From Escherichia coli (GTDB taxonomy: Bacteria; Pseudomonadota; Gammaproteobacteria; Enterobacterales; Enterobacteriaceae), in assembly GCF_048403405.1 (NCBI RefSeq), contig NZ_CP183129.1: 64,000 nt of DNA. One strand, 5' to 3'. Both the position numbers and the translations under genes were made by a program. Of this stretch, positions 1-52,385 are shown piece by piece (the stretch's first letter is position 1; the number at the start of each line of letters is the position of its first letter). The notes beneath the pieces are model-generated. The model saw only the letters and a list, made by a program, of their open reading frames with translations. It ran no database searches and was not told the DNA's origin.

Positions 1-885
1 ATTTGTCTTCGCTCGCCTCTACGGTACGGGTATCAGTCTGACGCGGCATCGGCGCAGGTGCCCACTCCACCAGACCATCCAGCATATGATCGACGCCGAA
101 GTTACCCAGCGCAGTACCAAAGAATACCGGAGTGATTTCGCCCGCAAGGAACAATTCTTTGTCGAACTCGTTAGACGCGCCTTTCACCAGCTCCAGTTCA
201 TCACGCAGCTGCTGCGCCAGATCTTCACCAACCGCAGCGTCGAGATCCGGGTTATTCAGCCCTTTAACAATACGGACTTCCTGAATGGTGTGGCCTTTAC
301 CGCTCTGATAAAGATAGGTTTCATCTTTATAAAGGTGGTAAACGCCTTTAAACAGCTTGCCGCAGCCAATCGGCCAGGTGATCGGTGCGCAGCCGATTTT
401 CAGCTCGTTCTCAACTTCATCGAGCAGTTCCATCGGGTCGCGGATATCACGGTCAAGTTTGTTCATAAAGGTGAGGATCGGCGTATCGCGCAGACGGGTA
501 ACTTCCATCAGCTTGCGGGTACGATCTTCAACACCTTTTGCGGCGTCGATAACCATCAGGCAGCAGTCCACCGCCGTCAGGGTACGATAGGTATCTTCCG
601 AGAAGTCTTCGTGCCCCGGGGTGTCGAGCAGGTTAACCAGGCAATCGTGATACGGAAACTGCATCACAGACGTAGTAATGGAGATCCCACGCTGCTTTTC
701 CATCTCCATCCAGTCCGACTTAGCGTGCTGGTTGGAACCACGGCCTTTTACTGTACCGGCGGTCTGAATGGCCTGTCCGAACAGCAGCACCTTCTCGGTG
801 ATGGTAGTCTTACCGGCGTCTGGGTGAGAAATAATTGCAAAGGTTCTTCTTTTCGCTACCTCTGCGGCCAAAAGGCTTGTCATAA
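1..885 (-). CDS. prfC: peptide chain release factor 3, partial (3' part runs off window start); first ~16 codons are prophage-derived
   Basis: Minus-strand translation from ATG at 883-885 gives [37 protein letters not shown]..., a GTPase G-domain matching RF3. Confidence 0.93.
822..835. repeat. att core copy (prfC-proximal junction), gggtgagaaataat
   Basis: Identical 14-mer at 49057..49070, about 20/23 identity over the extended repeat; encodes the AIISHP codons of prfC. Confidence 0.6.
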
Positions 886-1043
886 TTGTTGTCTCTTTGA
901 TTATGTACAATCATATGTACAAAGAAAAATTCATGCCGCTGATTGTACATTTTGGAGGTATCAGAGCATAGCAGAACATGATCAGTAGGTGTATTTGTAG
1001 CCAAAGAACATTTGTACATGCAGCAATCTTTGTTCCATTGACA

Positions 1044-1059
1044 CTGTTTATTCATACAG
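1044..1059 (+). promoter_or_regulatory. LexA (SOS) box 1, CTGT-N8-ACAG
   Basis: ctgtttattcatacag upstream of the dinI-like gene. Confidence 0.55.
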
Positions 1060-1102: not shown

Positions 1103-1351
1103 ATGCGTATTGAGATCTGCATAGCCAAAGAGAAAATGACTAAAATGCCAAACGGTGCTGTGGATGCGTTAAAGGAAGAATTAACTCGACGCATCAGTAA
1201 GCGTTATGACGATGTAGAGGTGATCGTAAAAGCCACCAGCAACGATGGCCTTTCTGTTACGCGCACCGCCGATAAAGATTCAGCTAAAACTTTTGTTCAG
1301 GAAACTCTGAAAGATACCTGGGAGTCTGCTGACGAGTGGTTTGTTCACTAA
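1103..1351 (+). CDS. DinI-family DNA-damage-inducible protein (prophage-encoded)
   Basis: 82 aa, MRIEI.IAK...[15 protein letters not shown] resembles E. coli DinI; RBS gaggga; SOS boxes upstream. Confidence 0.85.
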
Positions 1352-2573: not shown

Positions 2574-3164
2574 ATGTCTCGAATTTTTGCTTACTGTCGG
2601 ATATCAACTCTGGATCAGACCACCGAAAATCAACGCCGGGAAATCGAAAGTGCAGGCTTTAAAATCAAACCTCAGCAAATAATCGAAGAACACATTAGCG
2701 GCTCAGCAGCAACCAGTGAGCGTCCTGGTTTTAACCGGTTGCTTGCTCGCCTGAAATGTGGTGATCAATTGATTGTGACAAAACTGGATCGCCTTGGTTG
2801 TAATGCAATGGATATCAGGAAAACAGTGGAACAACTGACCGAAACAGGTATCAGAGTGCATTGCTTAGCATTGGGGGGCATTGACCTGACCAGTCCAACA
2901 GGAAAAATGATGATGCAAGTAATTTCAGCAGTCGCTGAATTTGAACGAGACCTTTTACTTGAACGCACTCATTCCGGGATAGTAAGAGCCCGGGGCGCAG
3001 GGAAACGTTTTGGTCGACCACCTGTGTTAAATGAAGAACAGAAACAGGTGGTATTCGAACGAATTAAGTCAGGTGTAAGTATAAGTGCCATTGCCCGGGA
3101 ATTCAAAACCTCGCGGCAAACCATTTTAAGAGCCAAAGCAAAACTTCAGACACCTGACATATAA
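2574..3164 (+). CDS. serine recombinase (PinQ/PinR-like resolvase/invertase family)
   Basis: 196 aa; N-terminal YCRISTLDQ catalytic-serine motif; C-terminal HTH. Confidence 0.85.
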
Positions 3165-4777: not shown

Positions 4778-5059
4778 TCACATCCAGCCACGAAGTTGAT
4801 GCTCAACAGCAACCACGTATTCATCGAATAATGACGATATTTGCGAATCATTAATGATGCGCACGTTTACAAAATATCCGTCTTCCTTAACACATACCGG
4901 TTCGCCATCTTCAGTCAGTTCTCCGGTTTCTTTGTACACGTTACCTATCACGTCAATAAGAATATCATCCTGCATCAACTCGTCATCATAATAGCCAATG
5001 CTCTCCATAAAGGCCGAAAAGTCGGCCCTGTCGGGAAATTTGAGTGTTAAATCTTTCAT
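4778..5059 (-). CDS. hypothetical acidic protein (93 aa) between the fiber genes
   Basis: ORF overlaps the stf stop by 1 nt, suggesting translational coupling. Confidence 0.5.
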   Translation of the reverse strand: MKDLTLKFPDRADFSAFMESIGYYDDELMQDDILIDVIGNVYKETGELTEDGEPVCVKEDGYFVNVRIINDSQISSLFDEYVVAVEHQLRGWM

Positions 5060-7440
5060 TAGATTGACTCCCCCACCTGAGCATCAGTCAATGCCTTGTG
5101 CCATATTCTGAAATTCCTTACATGACCAAATAAATGACGTAACCCGGCTGTAGTCTGGCCTCCAATACGGATAATTGCGGTGTTCTGAATACAGGACCAT
5201 GTGGTTTTTGTTTCGCTGGATATACGCCCGTTACTTACTGCGCATGTAGACTGATCAGACTTTACACGCATCCCCATAACCATTTTTTCAAGTGATGCAT
5301 TTTCGTTTATCCGTCTGTTAGACCCACCAATATCGCAATAAGGAAATCCGTCGTAATCTGCTGAAGAACCGAAGCCAAGAATAATAGCCGCTCCGGTTTG
5401 ATGACCGCCGGTATCAAAAACACGCGGTGCTGCATTTGGCGTTTTATACCAGTTCTTATGTACCTCACAAAGAACCGTAAAAGGAAGATTATAAAGATTA
5501 TTCTTAATGGGAACTGTGACTATATCGCTTGCGCGGGTCGCCGCCGTCGTTCCTGATATAATAAAAGATGATACACAAGGCCCATTTTCTACTTGTGGGG
5601 TGGCCAGATAAATATAGTCACCAGATACGGTTGCCCCGCCCTGCTTAGGAGAATACTGTATCTGAGAACCTATTTTTAACTCCCCATCAATTGCCTGAAT
5701 TGTTGCCTCTGCAAAAATCCATCCGATAACTTCGTCCTTTCTGACTCTCGCTGTAATCCTTGAGGCAGCGCCGCCTGTCATATTAATTTCAAGCGTTTGT
5801 GTATCAATATACACATCACCAAGAAAAGTTGTTGCGCTACCGTCATATTTATCAAATCGGATACGCAACCTTACCTGCAGTTCTGTTTTAAAACGACATG
5901 AGGTTGTCACGTATTTATTATCGCCTGAGACATCAACTGACTTTGTTGCAGCAATTGATGCCATATTAATGGCTGAGGTTTGCCCAATCAGAGAATCGTT
6001 ACAGACAAACTTTCCATAGGTAAAACCAAAACTATCCGTCCCGGTTTCGGGAACATCCATATTTGACGATCGCCCCCAACTGGCAGGGCTTTCCGAATTG
6101 AGCATGTAGTTCGTTCTTTGCCCCTCAATAAGCAGGCCATCACGTTCAAACCGTGGCTCGTCAATGGCAGCCTCTGTCAGCACACCAGATTTATTAATAT
6201 AGGTTGCTTTCGATGCGCGTTTAAACTTAACAACCTTGTCGCCAGGCATCGTTATTTCATCATCACCAATAACAATCTTTTTATATGACGGCGAAAAGCC
6301 CGTAATCATATCCAGCGAATCGTTAAATGGTATCCACACATCAGGCAGCGGCTGTAAGACATATTTATACGGCTCCGCAGCCTGGCTTGCGTACTCTCTG
6401 GCTGCATCTTCGCTTGCTTTAGCTGCCGTCTGGCTTGCTGCCGATGCTTTCGCTGAGTTCGCAGCCGCTGTTTCGCTCACCTTTGCGTTGGTTTCACTGG
6501 TTTTTGCTGCTTTTTGACTGTTAGCTGATGCAGTGGCAGAAGCAGCAGCCGCGCTTGCAGAACCAGCTGCAGCACTCTCGCTTTCGGCTGCTGCATCCTG
6601 ACTGCTTTTCGCCGCAGTTTCGCTGGCTTTGGCATTCGTTTCGCTGGTCTTCGCTGCCGTCTGGCTGGACTTTGCGTTAGTTTCACTCGTCTTCGCTGCT
6701 TTCTGACTGTTAGCCGCAGCAGTTGCTGATCCAGCAGCTGAAGTCGCAGAACCGGCTGCCGCGCTCTCGCTTTCGGCTGCTGCATCCTGACTGCTTTTCG
6801 CCGCAGTTTCACTGGCTTTGGCATTCGTTTCGCTGGTTTTCGCTGCCGTCTGGCTGGACTTTGCGTTGGTTTCGCTCGTCTTTGCGGCTGTCTCGCTATT
6901 TTTCGCGTTGGTTTCTGATTTTTTGGCTGCTGTCGCGGAGTTTTCTGATGCAGTCTGTGAGGTCGCTGCCGCCTGTGCACTATTAGCTGCATTCGTTTCT
7001 GAGGTTTTCGCCGCGTTCTTCGATGATGCCGCTGCAGTTTCGGATTTCTTTGCCGCCGCTGCGCTCTGAGAGGCGGCTTCGGCGTTGCGTGCCGCTTCTT
7101 CCACCATTTCCTCAAAACGACGCAATGCCTCCGGCATGACATCATCTTCCGTCATGGCACCGAGAAAATCATTCAGCGTACCTGGTCTGGAACCTTCATA
7201 GACGGTAATGGTTCCGGCATGTGAAGGCGGAAAACCTTCAACAAGCAGGATAACGCTGTACTGGCCATACTCAACATCCATGCTGTAACGCCCGGCTTCA
7301 TCCGGATTTTCAGAGGCCACCGTGTTCACCAGTACCGTGGTGCTGTTACGCTTTGCCTTCAGTTGAATAGTGCAGTTCTGTATTGGTTTTCCCGCACCAT
7401 CTTTCAGCACACCTGAGATTTTTACTGCTGCCATATCCAC
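5059..7440 (-). CDS. stf: side tail fiber protein (lambda Stf-like N-terminus, Ala/Ser/Thr-rich repeats, distinct C-terminal domains)
   Basis: N-terminus MAAVKISGVLKDGAGKP..NCTIQLKA matches lambda Stf; C-terminus ends GHVRNFRIWHKALTDAQV (lectin/LamG-like motif). Confidence 0.85.
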   Translation of the reverse strand: MDMAAVKISGVLKDGAGKPIQNCTIQLKAKRNSTTVLVNTVASENPDEAGRYSMDVEYGQYSVILLVEGFPPSHAGTITVYEGSRPGTLNDFLGAMTEDDVMPEALRRFEEMVEEAARNAEAASQSAAAAKKSETAAASSKNAAKTSETNAANSAQAAATSQTASENSATAAKKSETNAKNSETAAKTSETNAKSSQTAAKTSETNAKASETAAKSSQDAAAESESAAAGSATSAAGSATAAANSQKAAKTSETNAKSSQTAAKTSETNAKASETAAKSSQDAAAESESAAAGSASAAAASATASANSQKAAKTSETNAKVSETAAANSAKASAASQTAAKASEDAAREYASQAAEPYKYVLQPLPDVWIPFNDSLDMITGFSPSYKKIVIGDDEITMPGDKVVKFKRASKATYINKSGVLTEAAIDEPRFERDGLLIEGQRTNYMLNSESPASWGRSSNMDVPETGTDSFGFTYGKFVCNDSLIGQTSAINMASIAATKSVDVSGDNKYVTTSCRFKTELQVRLRIRFDKYDGSATTFLGDVYIDTQTLEINMTGGAASRITARVRKDEVIGWIFAEATIQAIDGELKIGSQIQYSPKQGGATVSGDYIYLATPQVENGPCVSSFIISGTTAATRASDIVTVPIKNNLYNLPFTVLCEVHKNWYKTPNAAPRVFDTGGHQTGAAIILGFGSSADYDGFPYCDIGGSNRRINENASLEKMVMGMRVKSDQSTCAVSNGRISSETKTTWSCIQNTAIIRIGGQTTAGLRHLFGHVRNFRIWHKALTDAQVGESI
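6511..6888. repeat. tandem direct repeat, 189-bp period (about two copies), inside stf
   Basis: ctcgctttcggctgctgcatcctgactgcttttcgccgcagtttc occurs at about 6577 and 6766; protein repeat AAKTSETNAKSSQTAAKTSETNAKASETAAKSSQDAAAESESAAAGSA. Confidence 0.8.
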
Positions 7441-45507: not shown

Positions 45508-46127
45508 TGACCACATTTACCAATAAAGAACTGATTAAAGAAATCAAAGAACGAATCAGCAGCCTAGAGGTTCGAGACGATATTGAGCGCCGTGCTTATG
45601 AAATTGCTCTGGCATCGCTAGAAGAGGAGCCGGTGGCATGGCTGCATTCAGAAAATGGCTTAGGTATTCCGGCAATAACGAGGAGTAAAAACATTGCTGA
45701 CAGTTGGTTATCAAAGGGCTGGTATGTTCAGCCGCTATATATAGCCAAGCCAGTGCCGATGGTGCCAGATGCTCGTCCGTCTTTAAATAATGGCATAGTC
45801 GGCTTTGATGAAGGCTGGAACGCCTGCCGCGCCTCCATGCTTAATGGTGCCGAACCTGTAAGCCAGACTTATAAGTTGAACGAGCTGTCGGGCAACTCTC
45901 CGGTAACTCCGGATGGTTGGATAAGCTGTAGTGAGCGAATGCCGAACGATAAACAGTATGTTTGGTGTTGGGGTAAGTCTTACGGCTGGACTGAGTGCGA
46001 TACCTTCGAAGGGTATTACGATTGTTCGAGAAACAAATGGTGGGCAGTTACTGACAATGGGGAAGAACCGGCATCGAAAGTAACCCACTGGATGCCGCTA
46101 CCGGAGCCGCCGCAGGAGGTGAAGTAA
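45507..46127 (+). CDS. DUF551-domain protein (YfdT-like)
   Basis: C-terminal WISCSERMPNDKQYVWCW...THWMPLPEPP. Confidence 0.55.
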   Translation: MTTFTNKELIKEIKERISSLEVRDDIERRAYEIALASLEEEPVAWLHSENGLGIPAITRSKNIADSWLSKGWYVQPLYIAKPVPMVPDARPSLNNGIVGFDEGWNACRASMLNGAEPVSQTYKLNELSGNSPVTPDGWISCSERMPNDKQYVWCWGKSYGWTECDTFEGYYDCSRNKWWAVTDNGEEPASKVTHWMPLPEPPQEVK

Positions 46128-46321
46128 TGAACAACTTAATGACAACTAAACAAGTCGCCGATTTCTGTGGTGTTTCAGTATCGACAGTTCTTCGCTGGAA
46201 CAGCGTAAACAGGAGAACTGGCCAGAAATACAGGCCTGACTTTCCAGATCCTGATATTAAATCCTGCCCAAATAAATGGGCATCACACAAGATTTACAGA
46301 TTTGCGGGAGTGATTGATTAA
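46127..46321 (+). CDS. xis: AlpA/excisionase-like HTH protein
   Basis: 64 aa; MTTKQVADFCGVSVSTVLRW HTH; adjacent to the integrase module. Confidence 0.6.
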   Translation: MNNLMTTKQVADFCGVSVSTVLRWNSVNRRTGQKYRPDFPDPDIKSCPNKWASHKIYRFAGVID

Positions 46322-46597: not shown

Positions 46598-47317
46598 TTA
46601 AATCTCTGTTTCTTTTCCTGTTCGGCTCAACCAATACTCCATTGTTTGAGTATGAATCTTTTCAGCGTATATTTTTTCAATTAATTTATCTCGTTTTTCT
46701 TTAATGACTTTACGCAGTGAATCATATAACATAAAAAAACGTTCATCATCTTCCTCATTATTACCGTAATTTATTTGATTGAGTTCTGAAAAAATATGAT
46801 AGCACCTTTTTTTCTTGGTCCCCGGCAATATTAAAACCAAGCCGCATTGATCATATTCAAATTCACCTTTATGGGCAGCAAAGTTATGTCTAACATTCAT
46901 AATAGAATCATGTAAATCTCTGTATTTTTCTGGCACATGCTTTCTCTGCAATGTGAATCGACGCCCTTTCGCCTCTGTAAAACACTTACCGTAAGTAACA
47001 ACTTTTGATATAAATAAAGACTTTAATATTAGATTCTTTTCTAAATCAGGATAAATAAAGTGTTGTTCTCTATTAATGTTATTACAAATGTTTTTTATTA
47101 TATTCTCCCAACCAATAACATTCCGAAGATCTTTATCCAGCAACTGTAAGGCCACATATTGTTCTACAAAGCGGCCTTTTAAAGGTATTCGTGGTAATAT
47201 TACACCTTTCTGCTTATAAACTCTTTCTATCGTATTATCTGGATATTGGATCTTCCTTATTTCTATTCCGTCTTCTTCTGATACCCTTACTAATGGTTCA
47301 TTTTTTAACTTTGACAT
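46598..47317 (-). CDS. hypothetical protein (239 aa) in an AT-rich moron between xis and int
   Basis: Visibly AT-rich relative to neighbours; own upstream intergenic region of 283 bp; R-x5-H motif at residues 143-149. Confidence 0.6.
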   Translation of the reverse strand: MSKLKNEPLVRVSEEDGIEIRKIQYPDNTIERVYKQKGVILPRIPLKGRFVEQYVALQLLDKDLRNVIGWENIIKNICNNINREQHFIYPDLEKNLILKSLFISKVVTYGKCFTEAKGRRFTLQRKHVPEKYRDLHDSIMNVRHNFAAHKGEFEYDQCGLVLILPGTKKKRCYHIFSELNQINYGNNEEDDERFFMLYDSLRKVIKEKRDKLIEKIYAEKIHTQTMEYWLSRTGKETEI

Positions 47318-47602: not shown

Positions 47603-48826
47603 TCAGTTTGAATCAGAGATAGTACAATTAACAATCGATTCAACCCTCTTCCACCATGCCAGGTAAGCTTTACGCTGTTCTTCTAGATAATCGCTCTTAT
47701 CATAAACTTGCCATACCCCTGGCAGCTTATGACCAAGCATAATTTCTGCGATATGAGGCGCAGTAAGATCAGAAAAATTTGTTCGTGCTGTCCGTCTCAA
47801 GTCATGAAGAGACCAATGAGGGAATTGATATCCTAAACGCCGCCACGCGTACTGCATTAAATTGTAAGGCAGCGACTGTAATGATGTCCTACCGACTGGC
47901 TCCCTGCTTCCTTCCTTAGTAAAAAGCATATCGGAACCGTTGTTCATAGAGATAACGTATTTTATAAGCTCTTCAACCGGTTCAATAATGGGCCGCTTTA
48001 GCGGTTCGCCTGTTATGTCCCCTGTCTTATGTCGTTCAGGTGGTACAGTCCATACCTTATTTATGAAATCAAAATCACCCACCCTAGCAGTAATTAGCTC
48101 CGAACTACGGCAACCAAAATGCAGTAATAGTTTAATGAAGGCCCTGTATTTGGGAACCATTCTAGAGCCATCGATCGCAGCATAAAGAATTTTAATTTCA
48201 TCGTGTGTCAGAAACCGTTTCTTCTGACCTTTACGGATATCCATATCTTTACCCGTGATATCCGACAGCGGGCGAGTTTCAATAAGCTTTCTCTTATACG
48301 CCCAGACATGGGCCTGCTTTGCGTTAATTAGCAATCGGTCTGCTATTGCTGGAGTCTTAGTGCTAAGAGGCTCCAGGACTTCTAACCAATCATGCAATGT
48401 AGCTGCATCGTGAGGGATATTCCCGATTTTAGAGAACAGGTGCAGCTCAAACGAGCGGAGTATCTGTTCAGAACTCTTTTTATTTTTTACACAATATGCT
48501 TCATACCAGGCACGGATCACAGACTCTACCGTCATGGCTTCAGTAGCTTTTCGTTTTTCAGCCTGCTTGACCAATCGTGGATTACGGTTTGACTCGAGTT
48601 CACCACGGAGACGGATAACTTCTTCTCTGGCCTCTTTTAATCCAGTTGCCGGGTAAGTTCCGATATCAAGACGCTCACCTTTCCCTGCCCATTGATAACG
48701 ATATTGGAACACTACGCGACCTTTCGGTGATACTCTGACAGACAGACCATCACGATCGGATTTAACCAAAACCTTATCACGTTCCTTTCCAACGACTGAA
48801 CGCAACCACGCATCAGACAGCGCCAT
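47603..48826 (-). CDS. int: tyrosine integrase (P4-type)
   Basis: 407 aa; catalytic R (GCRSSEL), H-x-x-R (HDLRRT) and C-terminal Y. Confidence 0.95.
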   Translation of the reverse strand: MALSDAWLRSVVGKERDKVLVKSDRDGLSVRVSPKGRVVFQYRYQWAGKGERLDIGTYPATGLKEAREEVIRLRGELESNRNPRLVKQAEKRKATEAMTVESVIRAWYEAYCVKNKKSSEQILRSFELHLFSKIGNIPHDAATLHDWLEVLEPLSTKTPAIADRLLINAKQAHVWAYKRKLIETRPLSDITGKDMDIRKGQKKRFLTHDEIKILYAAIDGSRMVPKYRAFIKLLLHFGCRSSELITARVGDFDFINKVWTVPPERHKTGDITGEPLKRPIIEPVEELIKYVISMNNGSDMLFTKEGSREPVGRTSLQSLPYNLMQYAWRRLGYQFPHWSLHDLRRTARTNFSDLTAPHIAEIMLGHKLPGVWQVYDKSDYLEEQRKAYLAWWKRVESIVNCTISDSN

Positions 48827-49055
48827 TACTCACCTTGTACAAATCGCAAAACACCTCTGCTGCTTTGTACATTATGTACAAGCATATGTACAGATTTTTG
48901 ATGAAAGCAACCTGATCGATTTAAAGTTACATGAAAGAATTTTCAATTAAAGAAGCCACATAACCATATGTATTTAAATGAGTTATATAACCAGACCTCA
49001 ATTAACTGAAAGGATTTTGAAAGAGTAAAAGAGCTTTAATTTGGGATTAATTATT

Positions 49056-49121
49056 GGGGTGAGAAATAATGGCAAAAGTGCGGCGCTTCGCCACCTCTTG
49101 CAAATAAGGAGACAACGTCAT
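49056..49121 (-). pseudogene. prfC: orphaned original 5' end of prfC (first 22 codons, [22 protein letters not shown]), with its native upstream region to 49210
   Basis: Minus-strand ATG at 49119..49121; frame ends in phage DNA after about 24 codons. Confidence 0.7.
49057..49070. repeat. att core copy (integrase-proximal junction)
   Basis: Direct repeat of 822..835, 230 bp beyond the integrase start. Confidence 0.6.
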
Positions 49122-49210
49122 AATTCTTTCTTCTTGAGTAAGCGGCATCGCGCCGCGCTTGTTGAAAACGAAAAATTGCGGCTATTTTACCCATCAACGG
49201 GGGGAGGCAA

Positions 49211-49888
49211 TCAGTGTTTACACAGGAGCTGCTCCAGTTCGTGCAACGAAGAAACGGTCCAGGTGGGCGCGATGCCTTCTGGTTGCTCGCGATTGTGCGC
49301 ATTCAGCCAGCAGGTCGCAAGCCCGGCGTTGATGCCACCGAGAATATCGGACTCGGCAGTGTCGCCAACCATCAGCACGCGTGAACGGTCAGGATTGCCC
49401 GCCTGTTCCAGCGCATAATCGAAAATTTTCTTATTCGGTTTGGCAACGCCAACTTCTTCGGAAATCACCAGCAAATCGAAATAATCACGCAGGCCCGTGC
49501 GTTCCAGACGCACTTGCTGCAAGGCGCTAAAGCCGTTGGTGATGATGCCAATTTTAGCGTTGCCACGAATGGCGTTAAGCAGAGAAACCGCGCCCGGCAG
49601 CGGCGTACAGATTTCCGCCATCGCATTAATAAAGGCTTCGTTGAGTTTACCCGGCTCGACGTTCAGCCGTTCGGCCCAGCTCTCAAACCGCCCGTGCTGA
49701 AGCTGTAATGAAGTGATCGCGCCGTTTTGATAATCCACCCACAGTGGCTTGTTAACGGCCTGATAGTCCTGAAAATCTTCAGCGGTAAAGGTGACGCTGT
49801 AATCAAGAAACATCCGCTGCAGGCCGGTGAATGAGTCAAAGGTAAACAGCGTTTCATCGGCATCAAAGAAAATCCAGTCCCACTTCAT
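49211..49888 (-). CDS. yjjG: pyrimidine 5'-nucleotidase YjjG (HAD family)
   Basis: 225 aa; DxD motif FFDADETL. Confidence 0.9.
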
Positions 49889-51865: not shown

Positions 51866-52064
51866 GTATCTGATATCTGTCGCCGCATACCGTGTCGGAT
51901 GCGGCGTACACGCCTTCTCTGACCGACAAACGAATTATCCACAATCCGCTGATGGACATTTTTCCAGCAATTACACCTCCGGCGATAATTAACTATTGAC
52001 GAAAAGCTGAAAACCACTAGAATGCGCCTCCGTGGTAGCAATTCTTTTTAAGAATTGATGGTAT

Positions 52065-52150
52065 GCGAAGGTGGCGGAATTGGTAGACGCGCTAGCTTCA
52101 GGTGTTAGTGTCCTTACGGACGTGGGGGTTCAAGTCCCCCCCTCGCACCA
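52065..52150 (+). tRNA. leuV: tRNA-Leu (anticodon CAG)
   Basis: gcgaaggtggcggaattggtagacgcg...ttcaagtcc...cgcacca; long variable arm; CUUCAGG anticodon loop. Confidence 0.9.
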
Positions 52151-52178
52151 AAAACCACGTTGATATTGCTCGCACTGG

Positions 52179-52264
52179 GCGAAGGTGGCGGAATTGGTAG
52201 ACGCGCTAGCTTCAGGTGTTAGTGTTCTTACGGACGTGGGGGTTCAAGTCCCCCCCTCGCACCA
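52179..52264 (+). tRNA. leuP: tRNA-Leu (anticodon CAG)
   Basis: Near-identical tandem copy. Confidence 0.9.
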
Positions 52265-52298
52265 AACGAGGCGATATCAAAAAAAGTAAGATGACTGT

Positions 52299-52385
52299 GC
52301 GAAGGTGGCGGAATTGGTAGACGCGCTAGCTTCAGGTGTTAGTGTCCTTACGGACGTGGGGGTTCAAGTCCCCCCCCTCGCACCA
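52299..52385 (+). tRNA. leuQ: tRNA-Leu (anticodon CAG)
   Basis: Near-identical tandem copy. Confidence 0.9.

What the first reader, a model, noticed from the sequence alone, without database searches (positions are those of the whole stretch)
49056..49210. Orphaned native prfC promoter and start codon now drive a 24-codon ORF into phage DNA
The displaced original prfC 5' end keeps its native upstream intergenic region (49122..49210) and start codon but terminates after about 24 codons inside the prophage. This transcription reads toward the integrase 5' region on the opposite strand from int, so it could produce antisense RNA over the attL/int promoter region.
Basis: inference. Interest (0 to 1): 0.35.

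Follow-up and report, generated by a model that had tools for sequence, protein, structure and literature searches.

The report
Leftover prfC start beside prophage integrase
This is the expected leftover of the host prfC gene's original start, displaced when a lambda-like prophage inserted into prfC; it points the same way as the phage integrase gene (not antisense to it), and the arrangement is ordinary for this already described integrase family.

Summary
The sequence observation is real. On the minus strand the native yjjG-prfC intergenic region (49122-49210), the native prfC ATG (49121) and 22 native codons are followed by 2 phage codons and TAA (49049-49047). This is the int-proximal junction (attL) of a ~48.2-kb lambdoid prophage (836-49056) inserted in the 5' end of prfC through a 14-bp core (822-835 = 49057-49070). 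The phage supplies a replacement prfC start at the other end.

Any transcript from the orphaned region is therefore sense, not antisense, to int.

The same junction occurs in 699 of 5,426 complete E. coli genomes. In eight loci from seven other genera with Int homologues down to ~51% identity, a prfC stub also sits co-oriented upstream of int, followed by conserved TGTACA repeats. No intrinsic terminator lies between stub and int. Promoter activity is unproven.

N-terminal replacement of RF3 by prfC-integrating phages and by SXT/R391 is published, as is the target-then-int layout with attL overlapping the int promoter (KplE1). Ordinary; low interest.

The parts
49211..49888 (-). yjjG (pyrimidine 5'-nucleotidase), last host gene upstream of prfC; holD and rimI lie further upstream on the same strand
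   Evidence: ORF list; RefSeq annotation of near-identical genomes
49122..49210 (-). Native yjjG-prfC intergenic region, now orphaned from prfC
   Evidence: Matches empty-site genomes apart from a C6 versus C7 run; also conserved in Salmonella
49184..49210 (-). Candidate sigma-70 promoter: TTGCCT (49210-49205), 15-nt spacer, TAAAAT (49189-49184). The spacer is 16 nt in all 8 other E. coli genomes sampled.
   Evidence: The scan finds it in the BL21 allele but not in the window. PWM score 9.8 is unremarkable. Activity not shown.
49047..49121 (-). Orphan prfC 5' stub: ATG at 49121, 22 native codons plus 2 phage codons (NN), TAA at 49049-49047
   Evidence: PGAP pseudogene call at the equivalent place
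49057..49070 (.). 14-bp att core (minus strand ATTATTTCTCACCC, codons Ile-Ile-Ser-His-Pro), int-side copy
   Evidence: Direct repeat family D11; three-way alignment of attB and both junctions; homology break at 49057
48827..49056 (-). Phage arm between core and int (P arm of attP / attL). AT-rich, no intrinsic terminator. A C-rich, G-poor tract at about 49086-48996 straddles the stub stop.
   Evidence: Contiguous with the prfC-mimic arm in free phage 2H10; terminator scans negative; C/G ratio 3-4.6
48835..48892 (.). Four TGTACA repeats (probable arm-type Int sites) in the last ~65 nt before the int ATG; the last one abuts the Shine-Dalgarno sequence
   Evidence: positions conserved across genera with Int identity down to ~51%, with invariant columns in the five-genus enterobacterial alignment
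47603..48826 (-). int, tyrosine integrase (407 aa), same strand as the stub
   Evidence: Pfam Arm-DNA-bind_3 + Phage_int_M + Phage_integrase; phrog_1 integrase
46127..46321 (+). xis (excisionase, 64 aa), convergent with int, so not in one operon with it
   Evidence: phrog_1553 excisionase, E = 6e-36; weak HTH_17 match
822..835 (.). Second copy of the 14-bp core at the far prophage junction
836..883 (-). Phage-supplied replacement prfC 5' end (ATG at 883; [16 protein letters not shown], running on through the core codons IISHP), fused in frame to host prfC
   Evidence: The nine codons EVAKRRTFA differ from the native ones at 6 codons, all synonymous.
1..883 (-). Hybrid prfC (runs off the window); residues 8-294 are 100% identical to BL21 RF3
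903..1019 (.). Four TGTACA repeats on the other attP arm, upstream of the phage-supplied prfC start

Best explanation
The feature is the integrase-proximal junction (attL) of a ~48.2-kb lambdoid prophage (836-49056). The prophage is 99.7% identical across int and the adjoining phage arm (a 1,457-nt query) to free phage 2H10. It is a relative of the cdtI phage and of Stx1a/Stx2c phages.

Shown: the phage integrated by tyrosine-recombinase crossover within a 14-bp core inside codons 18-22 of prfC. In its circular form the phage carries a prfC-mimic cassette (start codon plus 21 codons) directly upstream of the core, then a 230-nt arm, then int, all on one strand. Recombination exchanges the two 5' cassettes. 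The phage cassette becomes the new start of prfC, giving an intact RF3 with an altered N-terminus. The native yjjG-prfC intergenic region plus 22 native codons land upstream of int. There the frame closes after two phage codons.

Inferred: the 24-codon ORF is a passive by-product with no function of its own. RNA polymerase arriving from the holD-rimI-yjjG genes, or from a promoter in the 89-nt region, travels in the sense direction toward int. It meets no intrinsic terminator. It may be stopped by Rho in the untranslated C-rich tract, or by Int bound to the TGTACA arm sites that cover the last ~65 nt before int. int most likely has its own proximal promoter that overlaps these sites and is negatively autoregulated, as in the KplE1 IntS class.
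For: Core and junctions.

Empty versus occupied sites: 699 of 5,426 genomes carry the junction; the others break at 49057.

Free-phage attP, with mimic ORF, arm and int contiguous.

Hybrid prfC is intact and its mimic is under purifying selection.

Strand of int and the 220-nt distance.

The same stub-then-int geometry occurs in Salmonella, Pantoea, Xenorhabdus, Serratia, Vibrio, Pseudomonas and Shewanella.

No terminator between stub and int. TGTACA sites conserved before int. xis is convergent with int.

Literature: an Stx1 phage in prfC alters the RF3 N-terminus and removes the authentic RBS and promoter (PMC2323221). cdtI phage and SXT integrases cluster together and target prfC (PMC8138268). 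attL overlapping the int promoter with autoregulation, with target-int spacers of about 208-228 nt (PMC2951348).
Against: No transcript data are available. The candidate native promoter is only a 9-of-12 consensus match, and in this window its spacer is 15 nt. The proximal int promoter is not mapped; my PWM's best hit in the arm (TTGAAA-N16-TTAAAT, 48946-48919) is not conserved in the relatives. Int binding to TGTACA is inferred from position and conservation only. The conserved geometry could reflect common descent of the attP-int module rather than any use of host transcription.
Confidence: 0.85

Rival explanations
1. One reading: the orphan promoter makes RNA antisense to int and to the int promoter region.
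For: None. The idea rests on assuming that int lies on the opposite strand.
Against: int (47603-48826) and the stub (49121-49047) are both on the minus strand. The same co-orientation holds in eight related loci from seven other genera.
Confidence: 0.01
2. Evolved promoter exchange. In the lysogen, host prfC/yjjG transcription provides a meaningful share of int expression (and of the downstream orf239). In the circular phage, the promoter that serves the mimic cassette drives int instead. int expression would then report integration state, as with Pcirc of ICEclc.
For: The geometry is shown in the free phage and is conserved across genera with no terminator in between. int is uncoupled from xis and from the early-left operon. 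The ICEclc precedent is PMC5812530. Phi24B int is expressed in lysogens with negligible CI repression (PMC3064807).
Against: Neither promoter is demonstrated. 220 nt of untranslated, partly C-rich RNA could cause Rho termination. Conserved arm sites close to int suggest a local autoregulated promoter. The conserved layout is explained equally well by inheritance of an attP-int module.
Confidence: 0.2
3. Dead end. Transcription entering the stub is terminated by Rho soon after the stop codon and never reaches int, so the orphan has no consequence at all.
For: The 78-nt windows from 49086 to 48996 have C/G ratios of 3.2-4.6, and this tract straddles the end of translation.
Against: Composition alone is weak evidence. 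No rut or pause site was tested.
Confidence: 0.3
4. The 24-residue peptide is a functional micropeptide or a regulatory leader for int.
For: A short ORF ending 2-8 codons after the core is present upstream of int in all relatives and in the free phage.
Against: The post-core tails are unrelated (NN, YKTPLIK, NP, YNSL, DITL, and others). The conserved part is simply RF3's own N-terminus. A stop within a few codons is expected in AT-rich DNA. The 220-nt gap rules out translational coupling to int.
Confidence: 0.02

Closest known systems
prfC-integrating lambdoid phages of E. coli (Stx1 phage of O103, Ogura et al. 2007, PMC2323221; phage cdtI; phage 2H10)
   Same: Same integrase (95-99.7% nucleotide identity) and the same core. 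Ogura et al. describe the same replacement of the RF3 N-terminus and loss of the authentic RBS and promoter from prfC (PMC2323221).
   Different: The published accounts I could read discuss the prfC side, not the displaced stub or its orientation relative to int. Bobay et al. (PMC3603311) list prfC as 'disrupted', whereas here the hybrid gene is intact.
SXT/R391 integrative conjugative elements
   Same: [quoted passage not shown] Their integrase clusters with that of phage cdtI (PMC8138268).
   Different: In SXT, int is part of the SetCD-activated s003 operon and is convergent with xis (PMC4344509). That is not the stub-then-int layout seen here. I did not compare the SXT core sequence or IntSXT directly. 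That the crossover site is the same is my recollection of Hochhut & Waldor 1999, not a result obtained here.
KplE1 IntS-type recombination modules ('STI' shape; Panis et al. 2010, PMC2951348)
   Same: The target gene precedes int and is co-oriented with it. The spacer is about 220 nt, against 208-228 nt reported. attL lies over the int upstream region. int and the RDF gene do not share a promoter.
   Different: The target here is the 5' end of a protein-coding gene, not a tRNA gene. Autoregulation was not tested.
ICEclc Pcirc (PMC5812530) and 5'-end-replacing elements in mutS (PMC5296598)
   Same: An outward-facing cassette at one end of the element is placed upstream of int on circularisation (ICEclc). 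The element provides an independent promoter and start for the interrupted host gene (mutS element).
   Different: No promoter activity has been measured for either cassette here.

Membership tests
attL junction of a prfC-targeting tyrosine-integrase prophage (SXT cluster of the IntSXT subgroup) | Tyrosine recombinase with an arm-binding N-terminal domain adjacent to the junction | tested here: met
   Pfam Arm-DNA-bind_3, Phage_int_M and Phage_integrase, all above the gathering cut-off
attL junction of a prfC-targeting tyrosine-integrase prophage (SXT cluster of the IntSXT subgroup) | An identical short core at both element ends, inside the 5' end of prfC, with an uninterrupted target in element-free genomes | tested here: met
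   14-bp core at 822-835 and 49057-49070. 4,725 of 5,424 matching genomes match only from 49057 onward; those sampled show an uninterrupted yjjG-prfC.
attL junction of a prfC-targeting tyrosine-integrase prophage (SXT cluster of the IntSXT subgroup) | A free element with a contiguous attP that joins the two prophage ends | tested here: met
   Phage 2H10 and phage cdtI genomes carry mimic-core-arm-int as one contiguous stretch
attL junction of a prfC-targeting tyrosine-integrase prophage (SXT cluster of the IntSXT subgroup) | The element restores a translatable 5' end to prfC | tested here: met
   In-frame ATG at 883; RF3 residues 8-294 are 100% identical to BL21; 6 synonymous and 0 non-synonymous codon differences in the mimic. 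Expression itself was not tested.
attL junction of a prfC-targeting tyrosine-integrase prophage (SXT cluster of the IntSXT subgroup) | The integrase clusters phylogenetically with IntSXT | not tested
   Taken from PMC8138268 for the cdtI phage integrase, whose attP/int-5' region is 97.2% identical to 2H10. No IntSXT sequence was compared here.
Autoregulated 'target-then-int' modules (KplE1 IntS paradigm) | The target precedes int in the same orientation, with a spacer long enough to hold attL (~208-228 nt) | tested here: met
   Stub and int are both on the minus strand, with 220 nt from the stub stop to the int ATG. Same arrangement in eight loci from seven other genera.
Autoregulated 'target-then-int' modules (KplE1 IntS paradigm) | int and the RDF gene are not co-transcribed | tested here: met
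   xis at 46127-46321 on the plus strand, convergent with int
Autoregulated 'target-then-int' modules (KplE1 IntS paradigm) | Recombinase binding sites overlap the int promoter | tested here: inconclusive
   Conserved TGTACA repeats lie at about -70, -57 and -20 from the int ATG, including an invariant TGTACATAAT block. Neither the TSS nor Int binding is known.
Autoregulated 'target-then-int' modules (KplE1 IntS paradigm) | Int represses its own promoter | not testable with these tools
   Needs reporter fusions with and without Int
   Both are on the minus strand
Circular-form promoter placement (ICEclc Pcirc type) | A cassette that faces outward in the integrated state lies upstream of int in the circular form | tested here: met
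   Free-phage sequence
Circular-form promoter placement (ICEclc Pcirc type) | That cassette contains an active promoter that raises int expression | not testable with these tools
   Only weak consensus matches were found

The most novel reading that the evidence does not exclude
In the phage-type members of the prfC-targeting integrase family, integration swaps the transcription input to int. In the circular form, int lies behind the phage's own prfC-mimic cassette, which is adjacent to two LexA-box-like palindromes. In the lysogen, int lies behind the host holD-rimI-yjjG/prfC transcription unit. Int bound to the conserved TGTACA arm sites would act as a gate. Host housekeeping transcription would then set basal Int levels, and so excision competence, in about 13% of sequenced E. 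coli.
Probability: 0.2. Interest if true: 0.45.

Novelty: already known. Interest (0 to 1): 0.2.

Why it matters
Mostly as a correction. The stub is real but is the expected reciprocal product of a published integration mode, and the proposed antisense effect cannot occur.

Two modest points of value came out of the check. First, the phage-supplied RF3 N-terminus shows only synonymous changes against the native one. This indicates that the hybrid prfC is translated and under selection. That bears on a question left open in 2007 (PMC2323221) and contradicts surveys that score prfC as 'disrupted' (PMC3603311).

Second, in every relative examined, host transcription is aimed in the sense direction at int with no intrinsic terminator between. 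This would make a simple, testable case of integration-state-dependent int input, in an element family present in about 13% of complete E. coli genomes and including Stx and Cdt phages.

Tried and rejected
Rfam search of 48300-49700 at E <= 1 found nothing.

The consensus promoter/terminator scan of 48500-49500 found no minus-strand promoter and no terminator. My looser hairpin-plus-T scan flagged only a weak hairpin inside the native prfC coding sequence. That hairpin is also present in intact prfC, so I do not count it as a terminator.

PWM promoter scoring of the native intergenic region, the phage arm and the mimic upstream region gave scores within or only just above the background range, so it does not decide anything.

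RNA folding of 49190-48815 gave z = -2.9 but no recognisable terminator or riboswitch-like element.

Literature searches for an experimentally mapped prfC TSS found none. Burrus & Waldor 2003 (SXT att sequences) is not in the held library, so the SXT core was not compared.

Names attached to Int homologues in the protein search were generic and did not identify IntSXT.

The C6 run in the candidate promoter spacer was checked as a possible lysogen-specific change. It is not: 4 other lysogens and 4 empty-site genomes all have C7.

A functional-peptide reading was rejected because the post-core tails are unrelated between relatives.

Full report
WHAT IS THERE

All genes relevant to the finding lie on the minus strand. 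yjjG ends at 49211. An 89-nt intergenic region follows (49210-49122). Then comes the native prfC start codon (49121-49119) and the [27 protein letters not shown], with a TAA stop at 49049-49047.

A megablast of 48600-49300 against 5,426 complete E. coli genomes matched 5,424 of them. Of these, 699 cover the whole query. The rest match only from query position 458, which is window 49057, and carry an uninterrupted yjjG-prfC.

A three-way alignment of an empty site (BL21) with the two prophage junctions shows a 14-bp identical core. On the minus strand it reads ATTATTTCTCACCC (codons Ile-Ile-Ser-His-Pro). It lies at 49057-49070 and again at 822-835. The prophage therefore spans 836-49056, about 48.2 kb.

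At the far junction the phage supplies a new start (ATG at 883; [21 protein letters not shown]) fused in frame to host prfC. Residues 8-294 of the hybrid protein are 100% identical to BL21 RF3. Across the nine codons EVAKRRTFA, the phage copy differs from the native copy at six codons, and all six differences are synonymous. The mimic is thus maintained to encode the RF3 N-terminus.

PGAP annotates the same stretch in a near-identical genome as a C-terminally truncated pseudogene.

int is the 407-aa ORF at 47603-48826 on the minus strand. It has the Arm-DNA-bind_3, Phage_int_M and Phage_integrase domains. Its ATG lies 220 nt downstream of the stub's stop, on the same strand. Transcription through the stub is sense to int. 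The antisense proposal is excluded.

THE FREE-PHAGE FORM

Across int and the adjoining arm (a 1,457-nt query) the prophage is 99.7% identical to Escherichia phage 2H10. The same integrase, at about 95% identity, is carried by Stx1a and Stx2c phages and by PhiR63_1. The attP region is 97.2% identical in phage cdtI.

In the 2H10 genome the two prophage ends are contiguous. The order is: TGTACA repeats, then [26 protein letters not shown]-stop, then the 220-nt arm with more TGTACA repeats, then int. So the phage itself carries a 23-codon 'leader' of the same design upstream of int.

The 24-codon ORF in the lysogen is the reciprocal recombinant of that leader. Its two Asn codons and its stop are the phage's own.

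HOW GENERAL THE LAYOUT IS

Int homologues with 84% to about 51% identity were located on contigs from Salmonella, Pantoea stewartii, Xenorhabdus innexi, Serratia, Vibrio diabolicus, Pseudomonas and Shewanella.

In all eight loci, from these seven genera, a prfC 5' stub ending in ...[10 protein letters not shown] precedes int on the same strand. It is followed by 2-8 unrelated codons and a stop, and ends roughly 200-250 nt before the int ATG.

No intrinsic terminator lies between the stub and int in any of them; the tool scan of the window agrees.

Three or four TGTACA-type repeats occupy the last ~75 nt before int in almost all of them. Pseudomonas has degenerate GTACA-type copies and no exact TGTACA triplicate. 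An alignment of the five enterobacterial genera shows invariant blocks, including TGTACATAAT at about -57 and a copy that abuts the Shine-Dalgarno sequence.

In the window, 8 of the 14 TGTACA copies, and 7 of the 8 WTGTACAW copies, lie within about 230 nt of the two cores. These are most simply the arm-type sites of the integrase.

IS THERE A PROMOTER, AND WHERE WOULD TRANSCRIPTS GO?

This could not be settled. TTGCCT-N16-TAAAAT is found by the scan in the BL21 allele. Its hexamers and spacer length are conserved in Salmonella.

In the window a private one-base shortening of the C run (C6, against C7 in four other lysogens and four empty-site genomes) makes the spacer 15 nt. The scan then misses it. 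My PWM score of 9.8 is not exceptional against background.

Even without a promoter there, polymerase coming from holD-rimI-yjjG would enter the stub. Downstream there is no hairpin-plus-T terminator. However, the 78-nt windows from 49086 to 48996 are C-rich and G-poor (C/G 3.2-4.6), and this tract straddles the end of translation. Rho-dependent termination is therefore possible.

Rfam finds nothing in 48300-49700.

COMPARISON WITH WHAT IS KNOWN

Ogura et al. 2007 described an Stx1 phage in prfC. It changes a short N-terminal region of RF3 and removes the authentic RBS and promoter. They left open whether prfC is expressed (PMC2323221).

[quoted passage not shown] The cdtI phage and SXT integrases form one cluster that targets prfC (PMC8138268). 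In SXT, however, int belongs to the SetCD-dependent s003 operon and is convergent with xis (PMC4344509), so the stub-then-int layout is not shared.

The layout matches the 'same orientation, target precedes integrase' class of Panis et al. In that class attL overlaps the int promoter, the spacer averages 208-228 nt and int is negatively autoregulated (PMC2951348). The difference is that the target here is a protein-coding 5' end rather than a tRNA gene.

Two further precedents are relevant. Placement of an outward-facing cassette upstream of int on circularisation is known from ICEclc Pcirc (PMC5812530). Elements that bring their own promoter and start to the interrupted gene are known for mutS (PMC5296598). 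Phi24B int is expressed in lysogens with negligible CI repression (PMC3064807).

VERDICT

The interpretive step (antisense to int) is wrong. The only open and mildly interesting question is whether sense read-through from host DNA contributes to int expression. That needs transcript mapping and reporter fusions.

Noticed in passing
window 903-1019 and 48835-48892; L004-L012 at about 2925-3000: TGTACA / WTGTACAW repeats cluster on both attP arms. They are conserved in position before int across genera with Int identity down to ~51%, and they include an invariant TGTACATAAT block that could double as a -10 element. Probably arm-type Int sites, suggesting int autoregulation.
   Followed up: partly
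window 49199-49204: The homopolymer run in the spacer of the candidate native prfC promoter is 6 bases long here, against 7 in the 8 other E. coli genomes sampled (4 lysogens, 4 empty sites). It is either a private deletion or a homopolymer sequencing error. It shortens the -35/-10 spacer from 16 to 15 nt.
   Followed up: yes
window 1044-1059, 1072-1087 and 1103-1351 (+): Two LexA-box-like palindromes (CTGT-N8-ACAG; 6 in the window against 0.67 expected) sit just upstream of a phage dinI gene (Pfam DinI). dinI is divergent from the phage-supplied prfC start. In a lysogen these boxes lie about 160-200 nt upstream of the new prfC ATG; in the circular phage they lie upstream of the mimic leader and int.
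   Followed up: partly
window 46598-47317 (-): A 239-aa ORF of unknown function (phrog_8440, no Pfam hit) in a ~37% GC stretch, directly downstream of int on the same strand and between int and xis. It is a possible moron that any read-through into int would also reach.
   Followed up: partly
window 836-883 versus 49058-49121: The phage mimic of the RF3 N-terminus keeps EVAKRRTFA identical to the native sequence through 6 synonymous codon differences. This implies the hybrid prfC is translated and under selection. A published survey (PMC3603311) scores prfC as 'disrupted' by prophages.
   Followed up: yes
window 2574-3164 (+): A serine recombinase / DNA invertase (Pfam Resolvase + HTH_7) lies next to the tail-fibre genes near the far prophage end, which suggests an invertible host-range segment.
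   Followed up: no
window 6409-6942: Repeat families (27-, 59- and 189-nt units; start-to-start spacings in multiples of 21 and 42 nt) lie inside the 793-aa minus-strand ORF at 5059-7440, probably a repetitive tail-fibre or side-fibre protein.
   Followed up: no
window 52064-52385 (+): Three tandem tRNA-Leu(CAG) genes downstream of rsmC. This is ordinary host context.
   Followed up: yes
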